Shown piece after piece: positions 14,540-46,874 of a stretch of 64,000 bases of DNA. The notes under the pieces are model-generated. The model did not search any database. It had not been told where the DNA came from and saw only the letters and a program-made list of their open reading frames with translations. Location: assembly GCA_020630065.1 (NCBI GenBank), contig JAHDCC010000012.1, forward strand, positions 6,171-70,170, written 5' to 3'. This DNA is from Acidimicrobiales bacterium. Lineage in GTDB: Bacteria > Actinomycetota > Acidimicrobiia > Acidimicrobiales > SZUA-35. A program made the position numbers and the translations under genes. Every line of letters begins with the position of its first letter. Position 1 is the stretch's first letter.

Positions 14540-15013
14540 ATGAATCCAAAGTCGAAGACGACGGCGATCACCGGCGACCCATCTAGTGCGTGCTCGATTG
14601 AGGCGACCCTTGACGTGATCGGAGATCGGTGGTCGTTACTGGTTTTACGATCTGTGTTTCGAGGAAACCACCAGTTCAGCACTCTTCAAACAGAGCTGGG
14701 CATCGCCCGCAATCTGCTGTCGAGTAGACTCGCTCGCCTCGTTGAGAACGAAGTCTTAACCAAGGTTGAGTATCAGCGACGACCCAAACGATACGAATAC
14801 CGGCTGACCGGTAAAGGAGCCGACCTCTCCCAAGCATTGATTGCTCTAATGAACTGGGGAGACCGATGGTACGCATCAGGCAAAGCTCCAACCATCTTGA
14901 CACACCGCTCGTGCGATGCAGCACTTGAACAAGTAGTCGTTTGTACTGCATGTGGAACAGACGTAGGCCCAACAGCGATTTCTAGCCGACCAGGCCCCGG
15001 ACGGAGAACCTGA
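14540..15013 (+). CDS. HxlR-family winged-helix transcriptional regulator
   Basis: CSIEATLDVIGDRWSLLVLRSVF...FSTLQTELGIARNLLSSRLARLVENEVL...YRLTGKG. The stop overlaps the fbiC ATG (TGATG). Confidence 0.85.
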   Translation: MNPKSKTTAITGDPSSACSIEATLDVIGDRWSLLVLRSVFRGNHQFSTLQTELGIARNLLSSRLARLVENEVLTKVEYQRRPKRYEYRLTGKGADLSQALIALMNWGDRWYASGKAPTILTHRSCDAALEQVVVCTACGTDVGPTAISSRPGPGRRT

Positions 15014-17370
15014 TGAAACAATGCATCACGACATTACCAACACCACAAATAGGCGAGTTAGAAACCGCTGAACTACGACAACTAGCACGTGAGCGGCGGG
15101 AAACCCTATTCGGAACACGTATCTCCTACTCCCCCAAAGTGTTCCTTCCATTAACTACCTTGTGTCGAGATCAATGCAAATACTGCACATTCGCTCAACC
15201 CCCGGGCAAGGTCGAATCCCTTTTTTTGAGCCCAGATGATGTGCTGGACATCGCTAAGAAAGGTACTCAAGCGGGATGCCACGAAGCGCTCTTTACATTG
15301 GGAGAACGTCCTGAGTTGAGGTATCCGGCTGCTGCCGATTGGTTAAACGACCACGGTTATTCCTCAACAGTCGATTACTTAGTCGCCATGTGCGAACTAG
15401 TTCGTTCCGAAACAGGCCTGCTACCACACGCCAACCCGGGTGCCATGACCAGCGATGAGCTCGCCCAGCTCCGGACGGTTGCAGCGAGCCAAGGGATGAT
15501 GGTCGAAAGCCTACGGGCTGACCTCGACTGTCACAGTCAAGCACCAGACAAAGAACCGGCACGGCGTCTTGAAACACTTCACGCCGCAGGACGGCTCTCG
15601 ATCGTATACACCACCGGCATCCTCGTCGGGATCGGCGAAAACGAACCTGACCGGATTGAAGCCCTACGCGAGATCGCATCGATCGCAAAGAAATACGGCC
15701 ACATACAAGAAGTCATCGTGCAGAACTTTCGCCCAAAACCAGGGACGGCGATGTGGAAGTCGCCGGCCGCCGATGACGAGGACTTCTACCGGGCAATCGC
15801 TCTAGCCCGACTCATTCTTCCCTCAGACGTTCATGTGCAGGCACCACCGAACCTAAGCGACGACATCACGCCGCTTCTGGAATCAGGCATTGACGATCTT
15901 GGTGGAATCTCTCCAGTTACCCTAGACCACGTTAACCCTGAACGGCCGTGGCCAGAAATTGGCCAACTCGATTCAACATTAGCTGCATCCGGCTATCAGC
16001 TTGTACCGCGTCTGACCATCTATCCGGAATTCGCCAAAGATCCAGAAACCTGGATCGACCCAAATCTTAGGTTCAATGTCCTCGACCATAGCGATTCGGA
16101 GTATTTGGCGAGAGATGACGTAGGGCCGTTTGTACCTCATCGCTCTAGGCCAACAGTCGAACCCGACGATGGCGCTGAGGTTACGTTGCAGTCCAAACCA
16201 AAGTCAACATGGTATTCCGGGGTTGCCGGTACTCCCCGACGGTTGATAACGGACTCCGAACCTTACTTGTCTGCTCCTATCGCCGAGATTCTGACCGCCG
16301 TTGAGTCGGGGTTGTCCCCTGGATTTGATGAACTTCTTAGAATGTTTAAAGCCCGTGGAGATGAGATTACCCACATAGCTCGATCCGCTGACCGTTTGCG
16401 GCGCCAAGTGTCCGGTGACGACATTACGTACGTGAAGAACCGAAATATCAACTACACAAACGTCTGCACATTCAAGTGCCGGTTCTGTGGGTTTTCAAAA
16501 GGGCCGCTCAGCTTAAACCTTCGAGGCGCTCCGTATCTTCTGTCGATGAACGAAATTCAGCAACGGGTAGCCGAAGCCGCAGAAGCTGGCGCGACCGAGG
16601 TATGCCTTCAAGGCGGGATACACCCCGACTTTGACGGCGACTACTACATTGACGTCTGTCGAGCGGTTCATGATGCCGCCCCAGCTATTCACATTCACGG
16701 TTTCACTGCTCTTGAAGTTACCGAGGGAGCACGCCGATCGGCGGTATCGCTAAGAGACTACCTCACGGAACTCAAGTCAGTCGGATTACGGTCACTGCCG
16801 GGAACAGCGGCAGAAATCCTTGACGACAAGGTACGCGAAGTATTGTGCCCGGACAAGATCTCAACCGAGGAATGGCTCGAGGCTCATCGGGTCGCTCACC
16901 GTGTCGGCCTCCGTTCGAACATAACCATGATGTTCGGGTCGGTCGAAGAACCAGAGTCGTGGGTCCGTCATCTGCTCGTCACCCGAAAACTACAGCAGGA
17001 AACAGGTGGGTTTACCGAATTTGTAGGTCTCCCGTTCGTTCACATGGCTTCACCTATTTATCTTCAACGCAAGGCCCGAAGAGGACCGACCTTTCGCGAA
17101 ACCCTACTCGTTCACGCTGTCGCTCGACTTGCCTACCACGGCGTCGTTGACAACATCCAAGCCAGTTGGGTCAAGATTGGATTTGACGGTGTCGCCCAAC
17201 TTCTCCAGTCGGGGTGCAACGATATTGGTGGCACACTCACCAATGAGAATATTTCCCGAGCTGCTGGGGCAAAACACGGCCAGTCGGCGTCGTTGGACGA
17301 CTTTGCCAGACTAACTGAGCCTTTAGCTAGGCCGCTCAAACAGCGAACTACCGTGTACGGCAGGTTGTGA
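15013..17370 (+). CDS. fbiC: Bifunctional FO synthase (CofG+CofH fusion), F420 chromophore biosynthesis
   Basis: It has two radical-SAM CxxxCxxC motifs (CRDQCKYCTF and CTFKCRFCGF) in a 785-aa protein, which is the FbiC architecture. Confidence 0.95.
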   Translation: MKQCITTLPTPQIGELETAELRQLARERRETLFGTRISYSPKVFLPLTTLCRDQCKYCTFAQPPGKVESLFLSPDDVLDIAKKGTQAGCHEALFTLGERPELRYPAAADWLNDHGYSSTVDYLVAMCELVRSETGLLPHANPGAMTSDELAQLRTVAASQGMMVESLRADLDCHSQAPDKEPARRLETLHAAGRLSIVYTTGILVGIGENEPDRIEALREIASIAKKYGHIQEVIVQNFRPKPGTAMWKSPAADDEDFYRAIALARLILPSDVHVQAPPNLSDDITPLLESGIDDLGGISPVTLDHVNPERPWPEIGQLDSTLAASGYQLVPRLTIYPEFAKDPETWIDPNLRFNVLDHSDSEYLARDDVGPFVPHRSRPTVEPDDGAEVTLQSKPKSTWYSGVAGTPRRLITDSEPYLSAPIAEILTAVESGLSPGFDELLRMFKARGDEITHIARSADRLRRQVSGDDITYVKNRNINYTNVCTFKCRFCGFSKGPLSLNLRGAPYLLSMNEIQQRVAEAAEAGATEVCLQGGIHPDFDGDYYIDVCRAVHDAAPAIHIHGFTALEVTEGARRSAVSLRDYLTELKSVGLRSLPGTAAEILDDKVREVLCPDKISTEEWLEAHRVAHRVGLRSNITMMFGSVEEPESWVRHLLVTRKLQQETGGFTEFVGLPFVHMASPIYLQRKARRGPTFRETLLVHAVARLAYHGVVDNIQASWVKIGFDGVAQLLQSGCNDIGGTLTNENISRAAGAKHGQSASLDDFARLTEPLARPLKQRTTVYGRL

Positions 17371-18202: not shown

Positions 18203-19429
18203 TTGTTTGCCGATATCTATCGACGTGAAGTAGGTCGGTGCACTGCCACTTTAGTCCGTGTTCTTGGAGACATCGATGCGGCTGAAGAGGCAGTTGCCGA
18301 CGCGTTTGCTGCGGCTGCTGAACGTTGGAACGCTAACGGCATCCCGCAAAATCCTGGAGGTTGGATAACAACCACATCCCGTAACAAGGCGATCGACCGT
18401 TACCGGAGAGATTCAAATCGACGCCAGCAGCAGCGAAATGCTTCTTATCTGGAGAAAGGAGAACCCACGATGGCTCCCGAGCTAGGCAATCTTGACGTGG
18501 TAGAAGATGACCAACTTCGCTTGATGTTTCTTTGCTGCCATCCCGCTCTTAGCCCTGATGCACAAGTCGCGTTGACGCTTCGTCTGCTGGGCGGGTTGCA
18601 GACAACCGAAATCGCTCGGGCGTTTCTGCTGCCAGAGTCGACGTTAGCCCAACGGCTAGTGCGAGCAAAACGCAAAATCCGTGATACACACATGTCGCAT
18701 AGGTTGCCGACTCCACATGACTTGCCTGCTCGGCTCCCCTCTGTTCTCGGCGCTATCTACCTCATTTTCAACGAAGGCTATACGGCTAGTGAAGGGGAAG
18801 ACCTCGCTCGGCCTGCATTAGCTCAAGAAGCGATCAGATTAGGTCGTCTTTTGGCAAGATTCCTCCCCAACGTTCCTGAAACTTCCGGATTATTGGCGTT
18901 GATGTTATTAACCGAAGCACGGCGTCTGGCAAGGACAGACCGAGACGGCCAACTGGTCCGGTTGGCGGATCAAGACCGTTCAAGCTGGGACCAGGCTCTT
19001 ATTGCGGAAGGGCATGGTATTGTGCGCCGTTGCCTACAGCTACGCGAACCAGGCGTATATCAGATCCAGGCTGCGATCGCCGCCGTGCACACCGATGCGC
19101 TGGTAGCCGCCGACACCGACTGGCCTCAAATCTTGGCCCTATACAACCAGCTTCTAATTTTCCGGCCACACGACATTGTGAAACTCAACAGAGCCATCGT
19201 GGTTGCCGAGATCGAGGGACCAAAGGCAGGTCTGGAAGCGATAGATTCCTTACAACTCGATCGGTACTATCTATTTCATGCCACGAGGGCAGAATTCTTG
19301 GTGGCGCTGGGTGACCAAAACGCAGCATTAACATCGATGCGCCGCGCCATCGAGTTAACTAAAAACCAGTCGGAACGCCTGCACCTACAGAGAAGACATG
19401 CTGCGGTCTCAAAGCAACTTTCCCAATGA
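18203..19429 (+). CDS. ECF-like RNA polymerase sigma factor with a long C-terminal (DUF6596/TPR-like) extension
   Basis: Region 2 is AEEAVADAF...WITTTSRNKAIDRYRR. Region 4 is ALTLRLLGGLQTTEIARAFLLPESTLAQRLVRAKRKI. It is about 400 aa and follows a YCII gene, which is the typical pairing. The start is TTG and uncertain. Confidence 0.8.
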   Translation: MFADIYRREVGRCTATLVRVLGDIDAAEEAVADAFAAAAERWNANGIPQNPGGWITTTSRNKAIDRYRRDSNRRQQQRNASYLEKGEPTMAPELGNLDVVEDDQLRLMFLCCHPALSPDAQVALTLRLLGGLQTTEIARAFLLPESTLAQRLVRAKRKIRDTHMSHRLPTPHDLPARLPSVLGAIYLIFNEGYTASEGEDLARPALAQEAIRLGRLLARFLPNVPETSGLLALMLLTEARRLARTDRDGQLVRLADQDRSSWDQALIAEGHGIVRRCLQLREPGVYQIQAAIAAVHTDALVAADTDWPQILALYNQLLIFRPHDIVKLNRAIVVAEIEGPKAGLEAIDSLQLDRYYLFHATRAEFLVALGDQNAALTSMRRAIELTKNQSERLHLQRRHAAVSKQLSQ

Positions 19430-34002: not shown

Positions 34003-34563
34003 TTACCCCACCGGTGCCGATGCGTTCATGAGCGCCCGTCTGACTAAGTGGACAAGTGTGTCGCGCACGGCGTACTTGTTCCGAGCGTCTGTCACGACAA
34101 CCGGTACCTGCTCTGGTATCGAGAGAGCTTCACGAATTTCTTCCGGATGGTAGTGAAGTTCGCCTTCGAACGCATTCACGGCAACAACGAACGGAACACC
34201 TGTCTGTTCCATGTAGTCGATCGCCGGGAAGCAGGCGTCGATTCGATCGGTGTCGACTAGTACAACTGCGCCTATGGCTCCGCGAACGAGTTCGTCCCAC
34301 ATGAAATGGAAGCGGTCTTGTCCGGGGGTTCCGAAAAGATAGAGCATCAGTTCGTCACTTAGGGCAACTCGCCCAAAGTCCATGGCAACTGTGGTTCCGC
34401 CTTTTTTTGTGGCTTGGCCAAGATCATCGACATCTTCGCTGACCTTGGTCATGTTGGCTTCGGTAGTCAGTGGCTCAATATCTGAGATCGAACCAACGAA
34501 TGTGGTTTTGCCAACGGCGAACCCGCCGGCTACCACGATCTTTACTGGAATAGGGTTACTCAT
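34003..34563 (-). CDS. Ras/MglA-like small GTPase (conservon CvnD-like ATP/GTP-binding protein)
   Basis: The P-loop is AGGFAVGKTTF, with LFGTPGQDRF. It is the last gene of the kinase / roadblock / DUF742 / GTPase array. Confidence 0.85.
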   Translation of the reverse strand: MSNPIPVKIVVAGGFAVGKTTFVGSISDIEPLTTEANMTKVSEDVDDLGQATKKGGTTVAMDFGRVALSDELMLYLFGTPGQDRFHFMWDELVRGAIGAVVLVDTDRIDACFPAIDYMEQTGVPFVVAVNAFEGELHYHPEEIREALSIPEQVPVVVTDARNKYAVRDTLVHLVRRALMNASAPVG

Positions 34564-34569
34564 TGTTCC

Positions 34570-34944
34570 TCACAAGTTCTGTAGGCCGTCGAGGACCCGT
34601 TCAAGTAGCTGTAAATCTGGTCTGTTGTCCGGGCCGGACGTGTCTAAAGAGTGGCTTGTTAAATCGTCGGATTGAATCAGGTCCCCAACAAGAATCTTGG
34701 CTGTCTGAAGCGGAATGGAGAGGTGTGCTGATACCTCAGCGATTGAGATCGCTTCAGACGTAAGCTCAAGAATTGTCCGGAATTTACGGGGTTGGCTAGC
34801 TATGCCAGCTGTCCCCTGGGGCGTCGACACTACAAGTGTCTCTAGCGGAAGATCAACTTCGGCAATTGTTCGCCCACCGGTGAGCAGATACGGTCTGACT
34901 TTACGAGCCTTCCGTTCTCGGGGGGTTGGGGTCGAATCGGCCAT
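34570..34944 (-). CDS. DUF742 protein (CvnC-like)
   Basis: VRPYLLTGGRT... together with a C-terminal HTH-like SIAEVSAHLSIPLQTAKILVGDL. Confidence 0.75.
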   Translation of the reverse strand: MADSTPTPRERKARKVRPYLLTGGRTIAEVDLPLETLVVSTPQGTAGIASQPRKFRTILELTSEAISIAEVSAHLSIPLQTAKILVGDLIQSDDLTSHSLDTSGPDNRPDLQLLERVLDGLQNL

Positions 34945-43787: not shown

Positions 43788-45017
43788 TCAGTCGCCGATC
43801 GAGTTGAGTCGCGATTCTACATGTGTGCGCTCGGTTTCGTTAACTGACAATGCCGCTGCTTGTTCTAATGCAGTTCTGGCTTCACTCCGATTCCCGACCG
43901 CCAAAAAGAACTCCCCCCGACAAGCGTGAAAGTACGGGTACGAGGCCAAGCGGTTACGATCTCGGTCTGACAAGTCAGCAATCGCCTTCAACCCTGCTTT
44001 CGCACCCTTGAGATGTCCGATTGCGGCAGCACGGTTCAACGAAATTACCGCATCATCGTTATCTACCAGGAGAAGGTCATACAGGCTGATAATACGCAAC
44101 CAGTCTGTGTCTTCAAAACTTGGAGCAGTCGAATGAAGAGCAGAGATAGCAGCTTGAATTTGGAACGGTCCGAGCCGACCCCGAGAGTGAGCGCTAGCTA
44201 GACACCTAAGCCCCCGGTCGATCTTAGTAGTGTCCCATGAACTACGGTCTTGCTCGGCCAGAATAGCAAGTGATCCGTAATTCGTAACACGGCCTGGCTG
44301 TCTAGCATCAGAGAGCAGCAAGAGAGCGTGAAGTCCCGACACCTCAGGTTCCTGAGGAACAAGCTCTTCCAATAGCCCAGCAAGCCACAAAGCTTCCTGG
44401 CATAGATCGCCTCGGGTACCTTCCGGCCCAGTAATGTTCCTGTGTCCTTCGTTGTAAATCGAATAGATCACAGAGCAGACCGAACCCAACCGGGTCAACA
44501 GATGTCGCCGGTCGGCAGAAAACACAATATTCGCACCCGCAATCTTTTGCTTTGCTCGGGAGATTCGACGAGTCATTGTTGACTCCGAAACCAAAAACGC
44601 CTCTGCGATCTGCCGTGTAGACAATCCTGCCACGATGCGAAGTGTTAACGCTACCTGGCCCTCTGGAGCTAACGCCGGATGGCAACATCCAAGAATTAGC
44701 GCAAGCCGATCGTCTACTAACCCGTGGTCGCTAGCGCCAGCCGACAGAGCAGACACTTCCAGCTGACGGCGAAGTTCAGGTATCCGCTGGTCGAAGTTCT
44801 GCGTCCGACGAATACGATCGATAGCAATGCGTCGCGCAGCCGTAACTAGCCAGGCCCCTGGAGACGCTGGCCACTCCCCTGAGGACCAGTGTTTCGCCGC
44901 CTTCAGAAAGGCGTCTTGAGTAACATCTGATGCGAGGTCGAGATCCTTAAGATCCCGCATCAACGTAGCAACTACCTTTGGCCACTCGTGTTTATATACC
45001 TCGTCGAAGTCTCGCAT
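43788..45017 (-). CDS. ECF-like sigma factor with a long C-terminal extension (paralogue of 18203..19429)
   Basis: DVTQDAFLKA...WLVTAARRIAIDRIRR...ALTLRIVAGLSTRQIAEAFLVSESTMTRRISRAKQKI. Confidence 0.8.
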   Translation of the reverse strand: MRDFDEVYKHEWPKVVATLMRDLKDLDLASDVTQDAFLKAAKHWSSGEWPASPGAWLVTAARRIAIDRIRRTQNFDQRIPELRRQLEVSALSAGASDHGLVDDRLALILGCCHPALAPEGQVALTLRIVAGLSTRQIAEAFLVSESTMTRRISRAKQKIAGANIVFSADRRHLLTRLGSVCSVIYSIYNEGHRNITGPEGTRGDLCQEALWLAGLLEELVPQEPEVSGLHALLLLSDARQPGRVTNYGSLAILAEQDRSSWDTTKIDRGLRCLASAHSRGRLGPFQIQAAISALHSTAPSFEDTDWLRIISLYDLLLVDNDDAVISLNRAAAIGHLKGAKAGLKAIADLSDRDRNRLASYPYFHACRGEFFLAVGNRSEARTALEQAAALSVNETERTHVESRLNSIGD

Positions 45018-45046: not shown

Positions 45047-45403
45047 TTACCCTTCTACCGGCATCTCCAGCACAGGACGAACTTCAACCAACCCGTGAGG
45101 ATGCACTGGGCTTCGCTCCGCCCACGCGATCGCCTCATCTAGGTCTTCAACATCGATAATCTCGAATCCCCCGAAGCTTTCTTTCGTATCAGCAAACGGA
45201 CCGTCGGTCGTCACCGTTGCGCAGCCCTCGACTTTGACGACTGTAGCGGTAGCGCTGGGCTGTAAGGCTTCGCCTGATACCCATACGCCAGCCGAAACCA
45301 ACGCCTCGCTGTAAGCGATCCAAGCTTCCATTTCGGCCTGCTCAGACTCGGGGTCGGTAGCCGATCGGTTCTCATCATCGCAAAATAGCAGCATGAACTT
45401 CAT
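45047..45403 (-). CDS. YCII-related (DGPF) domain protein (paralogue of 17811..18173)
   Basis: MKFMLLFC...TDGPFADTKESFGGFEIIDVEDLDEAIAWAER. Confidence 0.8.
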   Translation of the reverse strand: MKFMLLFCDDENRSATDPESEQAEMEAWIAYSEALVSAGVWVSGEALQPSATATVVKVEGCATVTTDGPFADTKESFGGFEIIDVEDLDEAIAWAERSPVHPHGLVEVRPVLEMPVEG

Positions 45404-45518: not shown

Positions 45519-45974
45519 TTATACGGATGCTTCGACCAGCTCGTTTGAGTCCGAAACTAACTGAGAAAGCAGCCGGGCGGTGAATTCCCCCGCACCCTCT
45601 TCGACCCGTTTTCGGTGGATGGCGTAGCCACCAACAACATCGCCACCTCGACGACGAACAATGGATCCAAGTTTTGGTAGCGTCTTACCCGGATCAATTG
45701 CGTAGGTACAGAACACTGCCGCTTTTTTGCCATGGATCATTGGGAGCATGGAGGCTAATTTAGATTCTTTAGCAGGTTTCTGCCCGAAGAAGAAGATCCC
45801 ATCTGTCCAACTACCAACAATGACAACATCGGCGGATTTGAGCTCAGCCAAGTCAATACGGGACATCGGCGACGTTGAAGCTAACCATCCATGGGAACGC
45901 AGAGAACGAGCGATTGCTTCACCAGCTTCTTTAGTCGTCCCGGTTAAACTCTCGTAAATAACAATCGCTTTCAT
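45519..45974 (-). CDS. Flavodoxin-domain protein
   Basis: MKAIVIYESLTGTTKEAGEAIA is the flavodoxin FMN-phosphate loop. Confidence 0.75.
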   Translation of the reverse strand: MKAIVIYESLTGTTKEAGEAIARSLRSHGWLASTSPMSRIDLAELKSADVVIVGSWTDGIFFFGQKPAKESKLASMLPMIHGKKAAVFCTYAIDPGKTLPKLGSIVRRRGGDVVGGYAIHRKRVEEGAGEFTARLLSQLVSDSNELVEASV

Positions 45975-46025
45975 GAGTCTGACATTCCCGTTTCTATCGT
46001 TAAAGGTACCGATAAGATCATAGCT

Positions 46026-46295
46026 ATGGAATTCAGCATAGACATCACGTACTGCACCGCTTGAAACTATTTAGGGCGTGCCGTGAGCACAGCCAACGAC
46101 ATCCTAGACAACTACCAGCATCTGATTGCCGAGCTCCGTCTTGTCCCTGGTTCTAAAGGCGTATTTGATGTGAACGTGAACGGCGAGCTGATATTCAGTA
46201 AATACGACGTTGATCGTCATGCTCATGAGGGTGAAGTACTAAGCATCCTCACCGAGCATATCGGTCCCGACGTACCGAAATACCACGACAAATAG
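46026..46295 (+). CDS. SelW/Rdx-family thioredoxin-like protein with an in-frame TGA at the CxxU position (candidate selenoprotein; the alternative is a pseudogene or sequencing error)
   Basis: My own translation is MEFSIDITYCTA[TGA 46062..46064]NYLGRAVSTANDIL...LVPGSKGVFDVNVNGELIFSKYD... The ORF track only has the GTG-started C-terminal 70 aa (46083..46295), which would lack the redox motif. Confidence 0.6.
46075..46094 (+). promoter_or_regulatory. SECIS-like hairpin downstream of the in-frame TGA
   Basis: GGCGTGC / loop CGTGA / GCAC(A)GCC forms a 7-bp stem with a one-base bulge. The apical loop starts 17 nt after the TGA and contains G/GT. Confidence 0.35.
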
Positions 46296-46304
46296 CGCTT
46301 CGCT

Positions 46305-46874
46305 TTGAGTCAACCAGAGCGGGCGTCAACTCGCAGGATAAACGCCACTGCCAAACTGTTAAGCGCACACCCTGAAGACGTCATCGCCACATTAGAACAG
46401 ATGAAGCCCGACGCGCTTCACAACCTCGCGGCCGCAGTCGAACAAGTTCAAGTCGAACGAGCCTTGAAACGTGGGGATCTCGACACCATAATCGACGTCG
46501 CATTTGAAACCGGATTCGGCCGGGATGGGCTAGCCGTTCTTCCTTGGATAGAACACGATGTGATCGTTTGTCCCGGTGGACTTATCGCCAAAAGTAAAAC
46601 CAATCATAAATGTCGCTTTGTCAGCGTCAACAATTGCTGGATTTGGGAATCGGACGAACTTATCAGGGAAGACAAAAGATCTTCGCCTGGCAAACTCGAC
46701 GGTTTCAGAGCGGTAGCACTACTTCCAGTTCATCAATCGATGACGCTCGATGTAGTTACTGGTAAGGCACGCGCAGGACAGCACAGTCTTGATCGTGTGA
46801 CGTCGCTCGAAGTCCAAAACGGATCTTTGGTCGAGGTCGCCCAGCGGTCAGTTTCATCTGGCGGGATGCACTGA
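46305..46874 (+). CDS. Hypothetical protein (no recognisable family)
   Basis: This is a 189-aa ORF starting 9 nt after the SelW-like stop. The start is TTG and uncertain. Confidence 0.4.
   Translation: MSQPERASTRRINATAKLLSAHPEDVIATLEQMKPDALHNLAAAVEQVQVERALKRGDLDTIIDVAFETGFGRDGLAVLPWIEHDVIVCPGGLIAKSKTNHKCRFVSVNNCWIWESDELIREDKRSSPGKLDGFRAVALLPVHQSMTLDVVTGKARAGQHSLDRVTSLEVQNGSLVEVAQRSVSSGGMH

What the first reader, a model, noticed from the sequence alone, without database searches (positions are those of the whole stretch)
46026..46295. Hidden SelW/Rdx-type selenoprotein candidate: in-frame TGA at the CxxU redox position plus a SECIS-like hairpin
The ORF track shows only a 70-aa GTG-started ORF (46083..46295). 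Reading the same frame upstream gives ATG(46026) MEFSIDITYCTA-TGA(46062..46064)-NYLGRAVSTANDIL...LVPGSKGVFDVNVNGELIFSK. The Rdx family (SelW/SelT/SelH) has an N-terminal strand, then CxxC or CxxU, then a conserved RA, and a C-terminal G.FEV.V.G.L.FSK-like segment. Here the TGA falls exactly on the second redox position (C-T-A-U). Ten nt after the TGA there is a 7-bp stem / 5-nt loop hairpin (46075..46094). Its G-containing apical loop starts 17 nt after the UGA, which is the geometry expected of a bacterial SECIS. Without read-through the product would lack its redox centre, and gene callers would truncate or miss the gene.
Basis: partly seen in the sequence, partly recalled or inferred. Interest (0 to 1): 0.75.

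Follow-up and report, generated by a model that had tools for sequence, protein, structure and literature searches.

The report
Unannotated SelW-like selenoprotein gene, confirmed
This is a real but ordinary member of the well-known bacterial SelW-like (Rdx) selenoprotein family: its in-frame TGA almost certainly encodes selenocysteine, and gene callers truncate the gene to 70 aa because they read that TGA as a stop.

Summary
ATG 46026 opens a frame that runs through TGA 46062-64 to TAG 46293-95. With U read as C, the 89-aa product scores 62.7 bits on Pfam Rdx, against 33.6 for the 70-aa ORF. The TGA aligns with the second Cys of CxxC in full-length homologues and in solved Rdx structures. TGA is a normal stop in this window (13 of 39 long ORFs).

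All 80 metagenomic loci, retrieved with patterns lying only downstream of the TGA, carry TGA at that codon, as do 5 closer relatives. Amino acids are conserved and synonymous sites vary on both sides.

The hairpin is conserved at a fixed offset (consensus CCGCGC-CGUGA-GCGCGG, 11 nt after UGA). It shows compensatory changes and almost frozen synonymous sites. Four Cys-form homologues lack it.

A TAnnnT box 6-9 nt before the start codon in 60 of 75 upstream regions suggests leaderless mRNAs and supports ATG 46026 as the start.

selA, selB, selC and selD are not in the window, and the rest of the genome could not be examined.

SelW-like CxxU proteins are the most abundant marine prokaryotic selenoprotein family, described since 2005.

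The parts
46013..46018 (+). TAAGAT, a -10-like box 7 nt before the ATG. It is the putative promoter of a leaderless mRNA; there is no Shine-Dalgarno sequence between it and the ATG.
   Evidence: Sequence. The box is conserved in L001, L003 and L004. A TAnnnT box 6-9 nt before the start occurs in 60 of 75 distinct upstream regions of the clade, against 2.9 +/- 1.7 in shuffles. The stricter sigma-70 scan did not call it. Leaderless transcription is inferred, not shown.
46026..46295 (+). Full coding sequence of an 89-residue SelW-like (Rdx family) selenoprotein: MEFSIDITYCTA-U-NYLGRAV...KYHDK, stop TAG 46293-95.
   Evidence: Pfam PF10262 scores 62.7 bits (cutoff 22.6) and TIGR02174 scores 52.3 bits (cutoff 34.2) with U read as C. 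PDB Rdx-family matches 2OJL, 2FA8 and 3DEX.
46053..46055 (+). TGC, Cys10, the first residue of the CxxU redox motif.
   Evidence: Cys is invariant at this position in 80 of 80 distinct homologous sequences.
46062..46064 (+). In-frame TGA, the predicted selenocysteine codon (residue 13), at the second position of the CxxC/CxxU motif.
   Evidence: It aligns with the second Cys in full-length homologues and PDB chains. TGA is present in 80 of 80 metagenome loci and in L001-L006. TGA is otherwise a normal stop in the window.
46075..46094 (+). SECIS-like hairpin: 5' arm 46075-81, loop CGUGA 46082-86, 3' arm 46087-94 with bulged A46091. The conserved core is 46078-81 paired with 46087-90.
   Evidence: Folds at -9.7 kcal/mol. 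The family consensus CCGCGC-CGUGA-GCGCGG lies at the same position. Pair counts and covariation are, and RNAalifold finds the core independently. Synonymous sites are frozen at codons +5 to +9. The hairpin is absent in this register from Cys forms.
46083..46085 (+). GTG (Val20) inside the hairpin loop. It is the spurious start codon that ORF finders use for the truncated 70-aa ORF.
   Evidence: GTG is invariant in 80 of 80 homologues. Database homologues of 69-71 aa begin here.
45519..45974 (-). Divergently transcribed flavodoxin-like gene (context only; a possible but unproven redox partner).
   Evidence: Pfam Flavodoxin_3, 37.2 bits. It lies in the same divergent position in 12 of 86 loci.

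Best explanation
Positions 46026-46295 encode an 89-residue SelW-like (Rdx family) thioredoxin-fold protein whose redox motif is Cys10-Thr-Ala-Sec13. The UGA at 46062-64 is decoded as selenocysteine. As the ribosome nears the UGA, the hairpin 10-11 nt downstream (core stem plus a loop with invariant GUG) would bind SelB carrying Sec-tRNA(Sec), which would deliver Sec in place of termination. The mature protein would cycle between a selenol/thiol form and a selenenylsulfide (Cys10-Sec13) form, acting as a small redox protein; its substrate is unknown. The mRNA is probably leaderless and starts at A46026. What is shown: family membership, alignment of the TGA with Cys, conservation of the TGA, the conserved hairpin, and coding constraint on both sides of the TGA. 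What is inferred: SelB/tRNA-Sec decoding, because the machinery was not seen; the redox chemistry, by analogy with the family; and leaderless transcription, from a motif.
For: Frame and TGA.

Family membership: adding the 19 residues upstream of the GTG raises the Pfam Rdx score from 33.6 to 62.7 bits. TIGR02174 'CXXU_selWTH' scores 52.3 against a cutoff of 34.2.

The TGA column holds the second Cys of CxxC in 20 of 28 full-length homologues; 6 of the rest read 'W' there, which is TGA called under another code (verified as TGA in L006). The same Cys aligns in PDB 2OJL and 2FA8.

TGA ends 13 of 39 long ORFs in the window, so the code is not reassigned.

Conservation: 80 of 80 loci retrieved with peptide patterns lying only downstream of the TGA have TGA at this codon, preceded by YC-x-x. 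L001-L006 have it too.

Coding constraint on both sides: codons -8 to -1 and +1 to +4 keep their amino acids while synonymous codons vary.

Hairpin: in the 8-pair test structure 79% of cells are paired, against 17-60% when partners are slid. Double changes occur at pairs 15-31 (6), 17-29 (1), 18-28 (5) and 19-27 (4). There are 23 double-change cells against 10.8 +/- 2.5 in shuffles, 0 of 500 reaching the observed value. RNAalifold finds the core independently. Codons +5 to +9 use 1.0-1.45 effective codons (GCC 76/76, GTG 80/80), against 2.3-3.8 at equally conserved residues elsewhere. Four Cys-form homologues have TGC and form only 1-4 of 6 pairs in that register.

Start codon: a TAnnnT box 6-9 nt upstream in 60 of 75 regions.

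Literature: SelW-like CxxU is an established bacterial selenoprotein family (PMC1088965, PMC2398784, PMC1794560). A 5/6-bp hairpin a few nt after the UGA is the common bacterial SECIS core (PMC4607533). Sec machinery is present in all Actinomarina genomes, which belong to the same class, Acidimicrobiia (bioRxiv 10.64898/2026.04.03.716425).
Against: No tRNA-Sec, selA, selB or selD was found in the 64-kb window or in 292 kb of homologous loci. The rest of the genome could not be examined. The window's own hairpin is a weaker, bulged variant, and on its own it is not distinguishable from shuffled sequence. There is no Rfam SECIS hit, although Rfam represents bacterial SECIS elements poorly. The covariation counts are not corrected for relatedness. 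The Cys-form negative control has only four sequences. There are no protein-level data.
Confidence: 0.92

Rival explanations
1. The TGA is a true stop. The real gene would be the 70-aa GTG-started ORF (46083-46295), perhaps translationally coupled to a 12-codon upstream leader peptide, giving an Rdx-like protein without a redox centre.
For: This is what ORF finders and public gene calls produce. The 70-aa fragment alone still passes the Pfam Rdx cutoff with 33.6 bits. The GTG is invariant.
Against: The six codons between the TGA and the GTG (N-Y-L-G-R-A) would then be untranslated. Yet they are conserved as amino acids (Y 100%, R 91%, A 95%) with synonymous variation at +1 and +3, and they align with the family's conserved 'RA' segment. 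The upstream 12 codons add 29 bits to the profile score. The TGA sits exactly on the catalytic Cys column. The invariance of the GTG is explained by its place in the hairpin loop, since the neighbouring GCC is equally frozen. No SD-like sequence is evident by eye in the 15 nt before the GTG.
Confidence: 0.03
2. The gene is a pseudogene, or the TGA is a sequencing or assembly error for TGC/TGT.
For: A single in-frame stop in a short gene is the usual signature of either.
Against: The same TGA appears in independent assemblies from different samples at 96%, 77%, 66-70% and about 50-63% protein identity, 85 of 85 loci in all. Purifying selection acts on both sides.
Confidence: 0.01
3. The UGA is recoded, but not as Sec. 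It could be read by a suppressor or near-cognate tRNA (Trp or Cys), or under a reassigned genetic code (table 4/25).
For: Six database homologues are deposited with W at this position. Sec machinery was not observed in the available sequence.
Against: TGA terminates 13 of 39 long ORFs in the window, so the code is standard. The 'W' entries are gene-caller artefacts: L006 has a plain TGA and does not translate to the deposited protein under table 11. The position is the redox Cys/Sec column. A conserved hairpin at SECIS distance, with frozen synonymous sites, has no role in simple suppression.
Confidence: 0.04

Closest known systems
Bacterial SelW-like selenoproteins (Rdx family, Pfam PF10262 / former PF05169; NCBIfam TIGR02174 'CXXU_selWTH')
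   Same: Small protein of about 80-100 aa. An N-terminal beta-strand is followed by CxxU, then a conserved RA, then a G-x-F-[ED]-V...FSK segment. The UGA lies at the second redox position and a hairpin follows immediately. The family is abundant in marine metagenomes (PMC1088965: 48 genes in the Sargasso Sea; PMC2398784: 427 genes in GOS). One homologous locus found here, L073 = AACY020178629.1, carries the AACY accession prefix of the Sargasso Sea WGS project.
   Different: Nothing essential. This clade, apparently actinobacterial/Acidimicrobiia-like, has the motif C-[VT]-[PA]-U and a C-terminal GPDVP-x-Y tail, and it seems to be expressed from leaderless mRNAs. The window's hairpin is a bulged variant of the clade consensus.
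Cys-form bacterial Rdx proteins with solved structures (PDB 2OJL, 2FA8 Atu0228, 3DEX SAV_2001, 2OKA, 2OBK, 2P0G)
   Same: The sequences align over residues 5-87, E = 5e-9 to 1e-3. The YCTQC motif aligns with YCTA-U.
   Different: They have Cys (CxxC) instead of Sec and no recoding signal. They are somewhat longer (103-108 aa).
Minimal E. coli fdhF SECIS (upper stem-loop placed 11 nt after the UGA; from my own knowledge of Liu et al. 1998, which is cited in PMC4607533)
   Same: A short hairpin (6 bp in the clade consensus) begins 11 nt after the UGA, or 10 nt in the window. It has a small apical loop with conserved G and U.
   Different: The sequence is different (loop CGUGA against GGUC in fdhF, from memory). 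There is no long lower stem enclosing the UGA. Binding to SelB has not been tested.
NF041051 SelTWH_Campy (Campylobacter SelT/SelW/SelH (seleno)protein equivalog)
   Same: This is the best-scoring NCBIfam model, 81.3 bits over residues 5-75.
   Different: The score is below the curated cutoff of 88, so the protein is not a member of that equivalog. It is a related subfamily only.

Membership tests
Rdx / SelT-SelW-SelH family (PF10262, TIGR02174) | Profile HMM match above the curated cutoff over the whole domain | tested here: met
   PF10262 scores 62.7 bits (cutoff 22.6), residues 5-75 on profile positions 2-72 of 74. TIGR02174 scores 52.3 bits (cutoff 34.2).
Rdx / SelT-SelW-SelH family (PF10262, TIGR02174) | N-terminal CxxC/CxxU redox motif directly after the first strand, with the Sec/Cys column at the second position | tested here: met
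   C10-T-A-U13. In the 28 full-length homologues the TGA column is C in 20 and W (a mis-called TGA) in 6. It aligns with CTQC of 2OJL and 2FA8.
Rdx / SelT-SelW-SelH family (PF10262, TIGR02174) | Thioredoxin-like fold | not tested
   No structure was predicted, because the U-to-C sequence is not accepted by the structure tool. The only support is sequence homology to solved Rdx-family chains.
Bacterial selenoprotein gene (Sec-UGA recoding) | In-frame UGA aligned with Cys in homologues, conserved among orthologues, with coding constraint on both sides | tested here: met
   80 of 80 plus 5 of 5 loci carry the TGA. Cys forms use TGC.
Bacterial selenoprotein gene (Sec-UGA recoding) | SECIS: a stem-loop immediately downstream of the UGA with a small apical loop containing G | tested here: met
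   Window hairpin 46075-94, loop CGUGA, -9.7 kcal/mol. The clade consensus has a 6-bp stem 11 nt after the UGA. Covariation and frozen synonymous sites support it. The criteria come from PMC1088965 and PMC4607533. bSECISearch itself could not be run.
Bacterial selenoprotein gene (Sec-UGA recoding) | The genome encodes selA, selB, selC (tRNA-Sec) and selD | not testable with these tools
   None in the 64-kb window and none in 292 kb of related loci. Class-level support exists only from Actinomarina (bioRxiv 10.64898/2026.04.03.716425).
Bacterial selenoprotein gene (Sec-UGA recoding) | Selenium is actually incorporated into the protein | not testable with these tools
   This needs 75Se labelling or mass spectrometry.
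NF041051 SelTWH_Campy equivalog | Score at or above the curated cutoff (88 bits) | tested here: not met
   81.3 bits.
Rfam SECIS families | Covariance-model match | tested here: not met
   No hit at gathering threshold in the window, and none at E <= 10 in 45950-46350. The cited preprint describes bacterial in-frame SECIS elements as poorly represented in Rfam.

The most novel reading that the evidence does not exclude
This SelW-like clade, apparently actinobacterial, may be obligately Sec-containing (85 of 85 loci). It may be translated from leaderless mRNAs, so that Sec-UGA decoding happens only 10-16 codons from the 5' end with a minimal 6-bp SECIS placed 11 nt after the UGA. That would make it a compact natural system for studying SelB/SECIS recoding on leaderless transcripts. 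In one sub-lineage a conserved divergent flavodoxin-like gene might be its redox partner.
Probability: 0.5. Interest if true: 0.35.

Novelty: new member of a known kind. Interest (0 to 1): 0.22.

Why it matters
The main value is for annotation. The gene is mis-called as a 70-aa fragment lacking its redox centre, both here and in many public protein sets (69-71-aa entries, or entries with 'W' at the Sec position). The analysis also explains the systematic truncation: the invariant GUG in the SECIS loop is mistaken for a start codon. The gene is strong indirect evidence that this organism, probably a member of the Acidimicrobiia, decodes UGA as Sec. It does not change what is known about selenoproteins or about SelW function, which remains undefined in bacteria.

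Tried and rejected
I used the exact 76-aa post-TGA translation instead.

2. The word-index homology search found only two truncated relatives.

3. The first metagenome scan, using N-terminal patterns of which one required a Cys codon, found nothing. A 15-sequence alignment was too diverse to search with. A 4-sequence post-TGA alignment worked.

4. Rfam gave no hit at gathering threshold or at E <= 10.

5. ARAGORN found no tRNA-Sec in the window or the loci.

6. Pfam annotation of the 20 largest ORFs found no selA, selB or selD. That is a weak test, because the queries were not verified.

7. A search of the window for other genes split by a single TGA found only adjacent gene pairs and no second selenoprotein.

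8. Folding the single sequence in longer contexts does not recover the hairpin as the minimum-energy fold, and z-scores are unremarkable. The single-sequence argument was therefore dropped in favour of comparative evidence.

9. The sigma-70 consensus scan did not call a promoter upstream of the gene. The TAnnnT/leaderless reading rests on the comparative count.

10. I could not find the numeric bSECISearch criteria in the accessible texts, so I used the qualitative criteria from PMC1088965 and PMC4607533.

Full report
**1. Observation**

ATG 46026 opens a frame reading MEFSIDITYCTA, then TGA (46062-64), then NYLGRAVSTANDIL...PKYHDK, ending at TAG 46293-95. The mechanical ORF list contains only the GTG-started 70-aa ORF 46083..46295.

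The hairpin at 46075-46094 folds at -9.7 kcal/mol, with seven pairs and a 5-nt loop CGUGA. On its own the hairpin is not statistically remarkable: z is -1.2 to -1.7, and it is not the minimum-energy fold in longer contexts. The single-sequence SECIS argument is therefore weak, and the case has to rest on comparison with homologues.

**2. Family membership and the position of the TGA**

- With U replaced by C, the 89-aa product scores 62.7 bits on Pfam Rdx (PF10262, cutoff 22.6) over almost the whole model. The 70-aa ORF scores 33.6 bits, so the upstream 19 residues add 29 bits.
- NCBIfam TIGR02174 'CXXU_selWTH' scores 52.3 bits against a cutoff of 34.2. The Campylobacter equivalog NF041051 scores 81.3 bits, below its cutoff of 88.
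- An exhaustive HMMER search with the exact 76 residues after the TGA found 175 relatives in two length classes: about 60-71 aa and about 85-100 aa.
- In an alignment of 28 full-length homologues, the TGA column is the second Cys of CxxC in 20 and 'W' in 6.
- The 'W' entries are gene-caller artefacts. The one locus checked, L006, has a plain TGA and does not translate to the deposited protein under table 11.
- Solved Rdx-family structures (2OJL, 2FA8, 3DEX, 2OKA, 2OBK, 2P0G) match at E = 5e-9 to 1e-3, with YCTQC aligned to YCTA-U.

**3. Is TGA a stop in this organism?**

Yes. TGA terminates 13 of the 39 ORFs of at least 200 aa in the window, alongside 14 TAA and 12 TAG. A reassigned genetic code is excluded.

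**4. Conservation of the TGA**

- Close relatives carry TGA at the same codon, with the upstream frame conserved and differing partly by synonymous changes. They are L001/L002 (96% identical, syntenic), L004 (77%, from a MAG labelled uncultured Acidimicrobiaceae) and L003 (66-70%).
- The more distant L005 and L006 also have the TGA.
- I then scanned the metagenome collection with peptide patterns lying only downstream of the TGA (A[NS]D[IL]L..YQ and [VT][DG]RHA...GE), so the search was not conditioned on the codon. All 80 loci returned have TGA there, preceded by (I/L)-x-Y-C-x-x.
- One of these loci, L073, is AACY020178629.1, which carries the AACY accession prefix of the Sargasso Sea WGS project.
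- Across 80 distinct sequences, codons -8 to -1 and +1 to +4 keep their amino acids while synonymous codons vary. For example, Val-2 uses GTC 34, GTT 26, GTG 13 and GTA 2, and Ser+3 uses TCG, TCA and TCC.
- Both sides of the TGA are therefore translated in this frame, including the six codons between the TGA and the GTG that gene callers take as the start. This rules out a sequencing error, a pseudogene, and the model of a leader peptide followed by reinitiation at the GTG.

**5. The hairpin as a SECIS**

- In 68 distinct sequences aligned without gaps from the TGA (A5), the consensus is CCGCGC-CGUGA-GCGCGG, with columns 15-20 pairing with columns 26-31. The stem begins 11 nt after the UGA.
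- For an 8-pair test structure, 79% of cells are paired, against 17-60% when the 3' partners are slid by 1-3 columns. The four inner pairs are paired in 93-100% of sequences.
- Double (compensatory) changes occur at 15-31 (6 sequences), 17-29 (1), 18-28 (5) and 19-27 (4). There are 23 double-change cells against 10.8 +/- 2.5 in shuffles, and 0 of 500 shuffles reach that number.
- RNAalifold independently predicts the 4-bp core.
- These counts are not corrected for relatedness, so I looked for a second line of evidence in synonymous sites. Codons +5 to +9 (R-A-V-S-A), which form the hairpin, use only 1.0-1.45 effective codons: Ala GCC 76/76, Val GTG 80/80, Ser AGC/AGT only. Equally conserved Gly, Val, Ser, Arg, Ala and Leu positions elsewhere use 2.3-3.8.
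- As a negative control, four Cys-form homologues (L088-L091) use TGC and form only 1-4 of the 6 consensus pairs. Among Sec forms, 66 of 73 form 5-6 pairs. Mean local folding energy is about -6.5 kcal/mol for the Cys forms and -12.0 for the Sec forms. With only four sequences this control is small.
- The window's own hairpin is a variant. Pair 18-28 is U-A, which is compensated relative to the usual C-G. A46091 is bulged and the lower three pairs are shifted by one. L003 and L004 share this form, with U at the bulge.
[quoted passage not shown] The figure of 11 nt for fdhF is from my own memory of Liu et al. 1998.
- Rfam has no match. That carries little weight, because Rfam represents bacterial in-frame SECIS elements poorly (noted in bioRxiv 10.64898/2026.04.03.716425).

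**6. Start codon**

The intergenic region to the divergent flavodoxin-like gene is 51 nt and has no Shine-Dalgarno sequence. TAAGAT (46013-18) lies 7 nt before the ATG.

In 60 of 75 distinct upstream regions of the clade, a TAnnnT box lies 6-9 nt before the start codon. Shuffles give 2.9 +/- 1.7, and other offsets give 0-10. This is the actinobacterial signature of a leaderless mRNA, an interpretation from my general knowledge. It independently places the translation start upstream of the TGA. The signal is a motif, not a mapped transcription start, and the strict sigma-70 scan did not call it.

**7. Sec machinery**

None is present in the window. There is no tRNA at all, and there is no selA, selB or selD among the 20 largest ORFs, which are ordinary core genes: tkt, tal, pyk, glpX, H+-PPase, a CofGH-like radical-SAM gene, two ECF sigma factors, an SNF2 helicase and a Ser/Thr kinase. 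None was found in 292 kb of homologous loci either.

No other TGA-interrupted gene in the window looks like a selenoprotein. The window's proteins occur on unnamed Logan contigs.

Indirect support comes from three points. Actinobacteria are one of three selenoprotein-rich phyla (PMC1794560). All 84 complete Actinomarina genomes (class Acidimicrobiia) carry selA, selB, selC and selD (bioRxiv 10.64898/2026.04.03.716425). And an in-frame stop cannot stay fixed at a catalytic position across such divergence unless it is decoded.

**8. Mechanism**

The best explanation, with confidence about 0.92, is standard bacterial Sec recoding. SelB carrying GTP and Sec-tRNA(Sec) binds the hairpin and decodes UGA 46062-64. 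The product is an 89-residue thioredoxin-fold protein with a Cys10-x-x-Sec13 centre that cycles through a selenenylsulfide.

Family membership, Cys/TGA alignment, TGA conservation and the RNA-level constraint are shown. SelB dependence, selenium incorporation and the redox chemistry are inferred by analogy. The physiological substrate is unknown for all bacterial SelW-like proteins. A divergent flavodoxin-like gene is conserved in 12 of 86 loci, which is only a hint of a partner.

**9. Comparison with what is known, and novelty**

[quoted passage not shown] They have few Cys homologues in Sec-using organisms (PMC1794560). Annotation often misses them entirely (PMC4607533).

This gene is therefore a correctly spotted but ordinary new member of a known kind. 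Two minor points came out of the analysis:
- The invariant GUG in the SECIS loop explains the systematic 69-71-aa truncated database entries.
- The clade appears to use leaderless mRNAs, which puts the Sec codon 10-16 codons from the 5' end.

**10. Verdict**

Novelty is low and interest is about 0.2.

Noticed in passing
window 46013-46028; upstream regions of L001-L086: A TAnnnT box lies 6-9 nt before the start codon in 60 of 75 distinct upstream regions of this SelW-like clade (shuffles 2.9 +/- 1.7). An SD-like 4-mer is present in only 16 of 75. This suggests the genes are transcribed as leaderless mRNAs, with the Sec-UGA only 10-16 codons from the 5' end.
   Followed up: partly
window 46083-46085; proteins P0001-P0003, P0007-P0009, P0013: The GTG in the SECIS loop is invariant (80/80) and is what gene callers take as the start codon. 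This produces a large population of 69-71-aa truncated Rdx entries in public protein sets. Six other entries (P0004, P0011, P0020, P0037, P0057, P0070) carry 'W' at the Sec position, apparently called under genetic code 4.
   Followed up: partly
window 45519-45974 (-): A flavodoxin-like gene (PF12641) is transcribed divergently from the selenoprotein gene with a 51-nt spacer. The same arrangement occurs in 12 of 86 homologous loci at 47-99% identity. It may be a redox partner, or it may only be lineage synteny.
   Followed up: partly
window 46305-46874 (+): The 189-aa ORF immediately downstream has no Pfam match but is conserved next to the gene in L001/L002, L004 and L003 (79-99% identity). 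Its function is unknown. Public gene calls start it later, giving 157 aa.
   Followed up: partly
window 18203-19429 (+) and 43788-45017 (-), with 45047-45403 (-): There are two paralogous ECF-type sigma factors with a C-terminal DUF6596 domain. The second is preceded by a YCII-domain gene, and HxlR-type regulator and SnoaL-like genes lie nearby.
   Followed up: no
window 34003-34944 (-): Two adjacent ORFs of 124 and 188 codons are joined in frame by a single TGA. The second has a P-loop (GGFAVGKTT, by eye). They look like neighbouring genes of an actinobacterial conservon-type cluster, not a selenoprotein. I did not check them with Pfam.
   Followed up: no
window 15013-17370 (+): A 785-aa protein has two radical-SAM stretches and a CofH C-terminal region (an FbiC/CofGH-like F420 biosynthesis enzyme). 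This is consistent with an actinobacterial origin of the window, as is the nearest named relative, an uncultured Acidimicrobiaceae MAG (L004).
   Followed up: no
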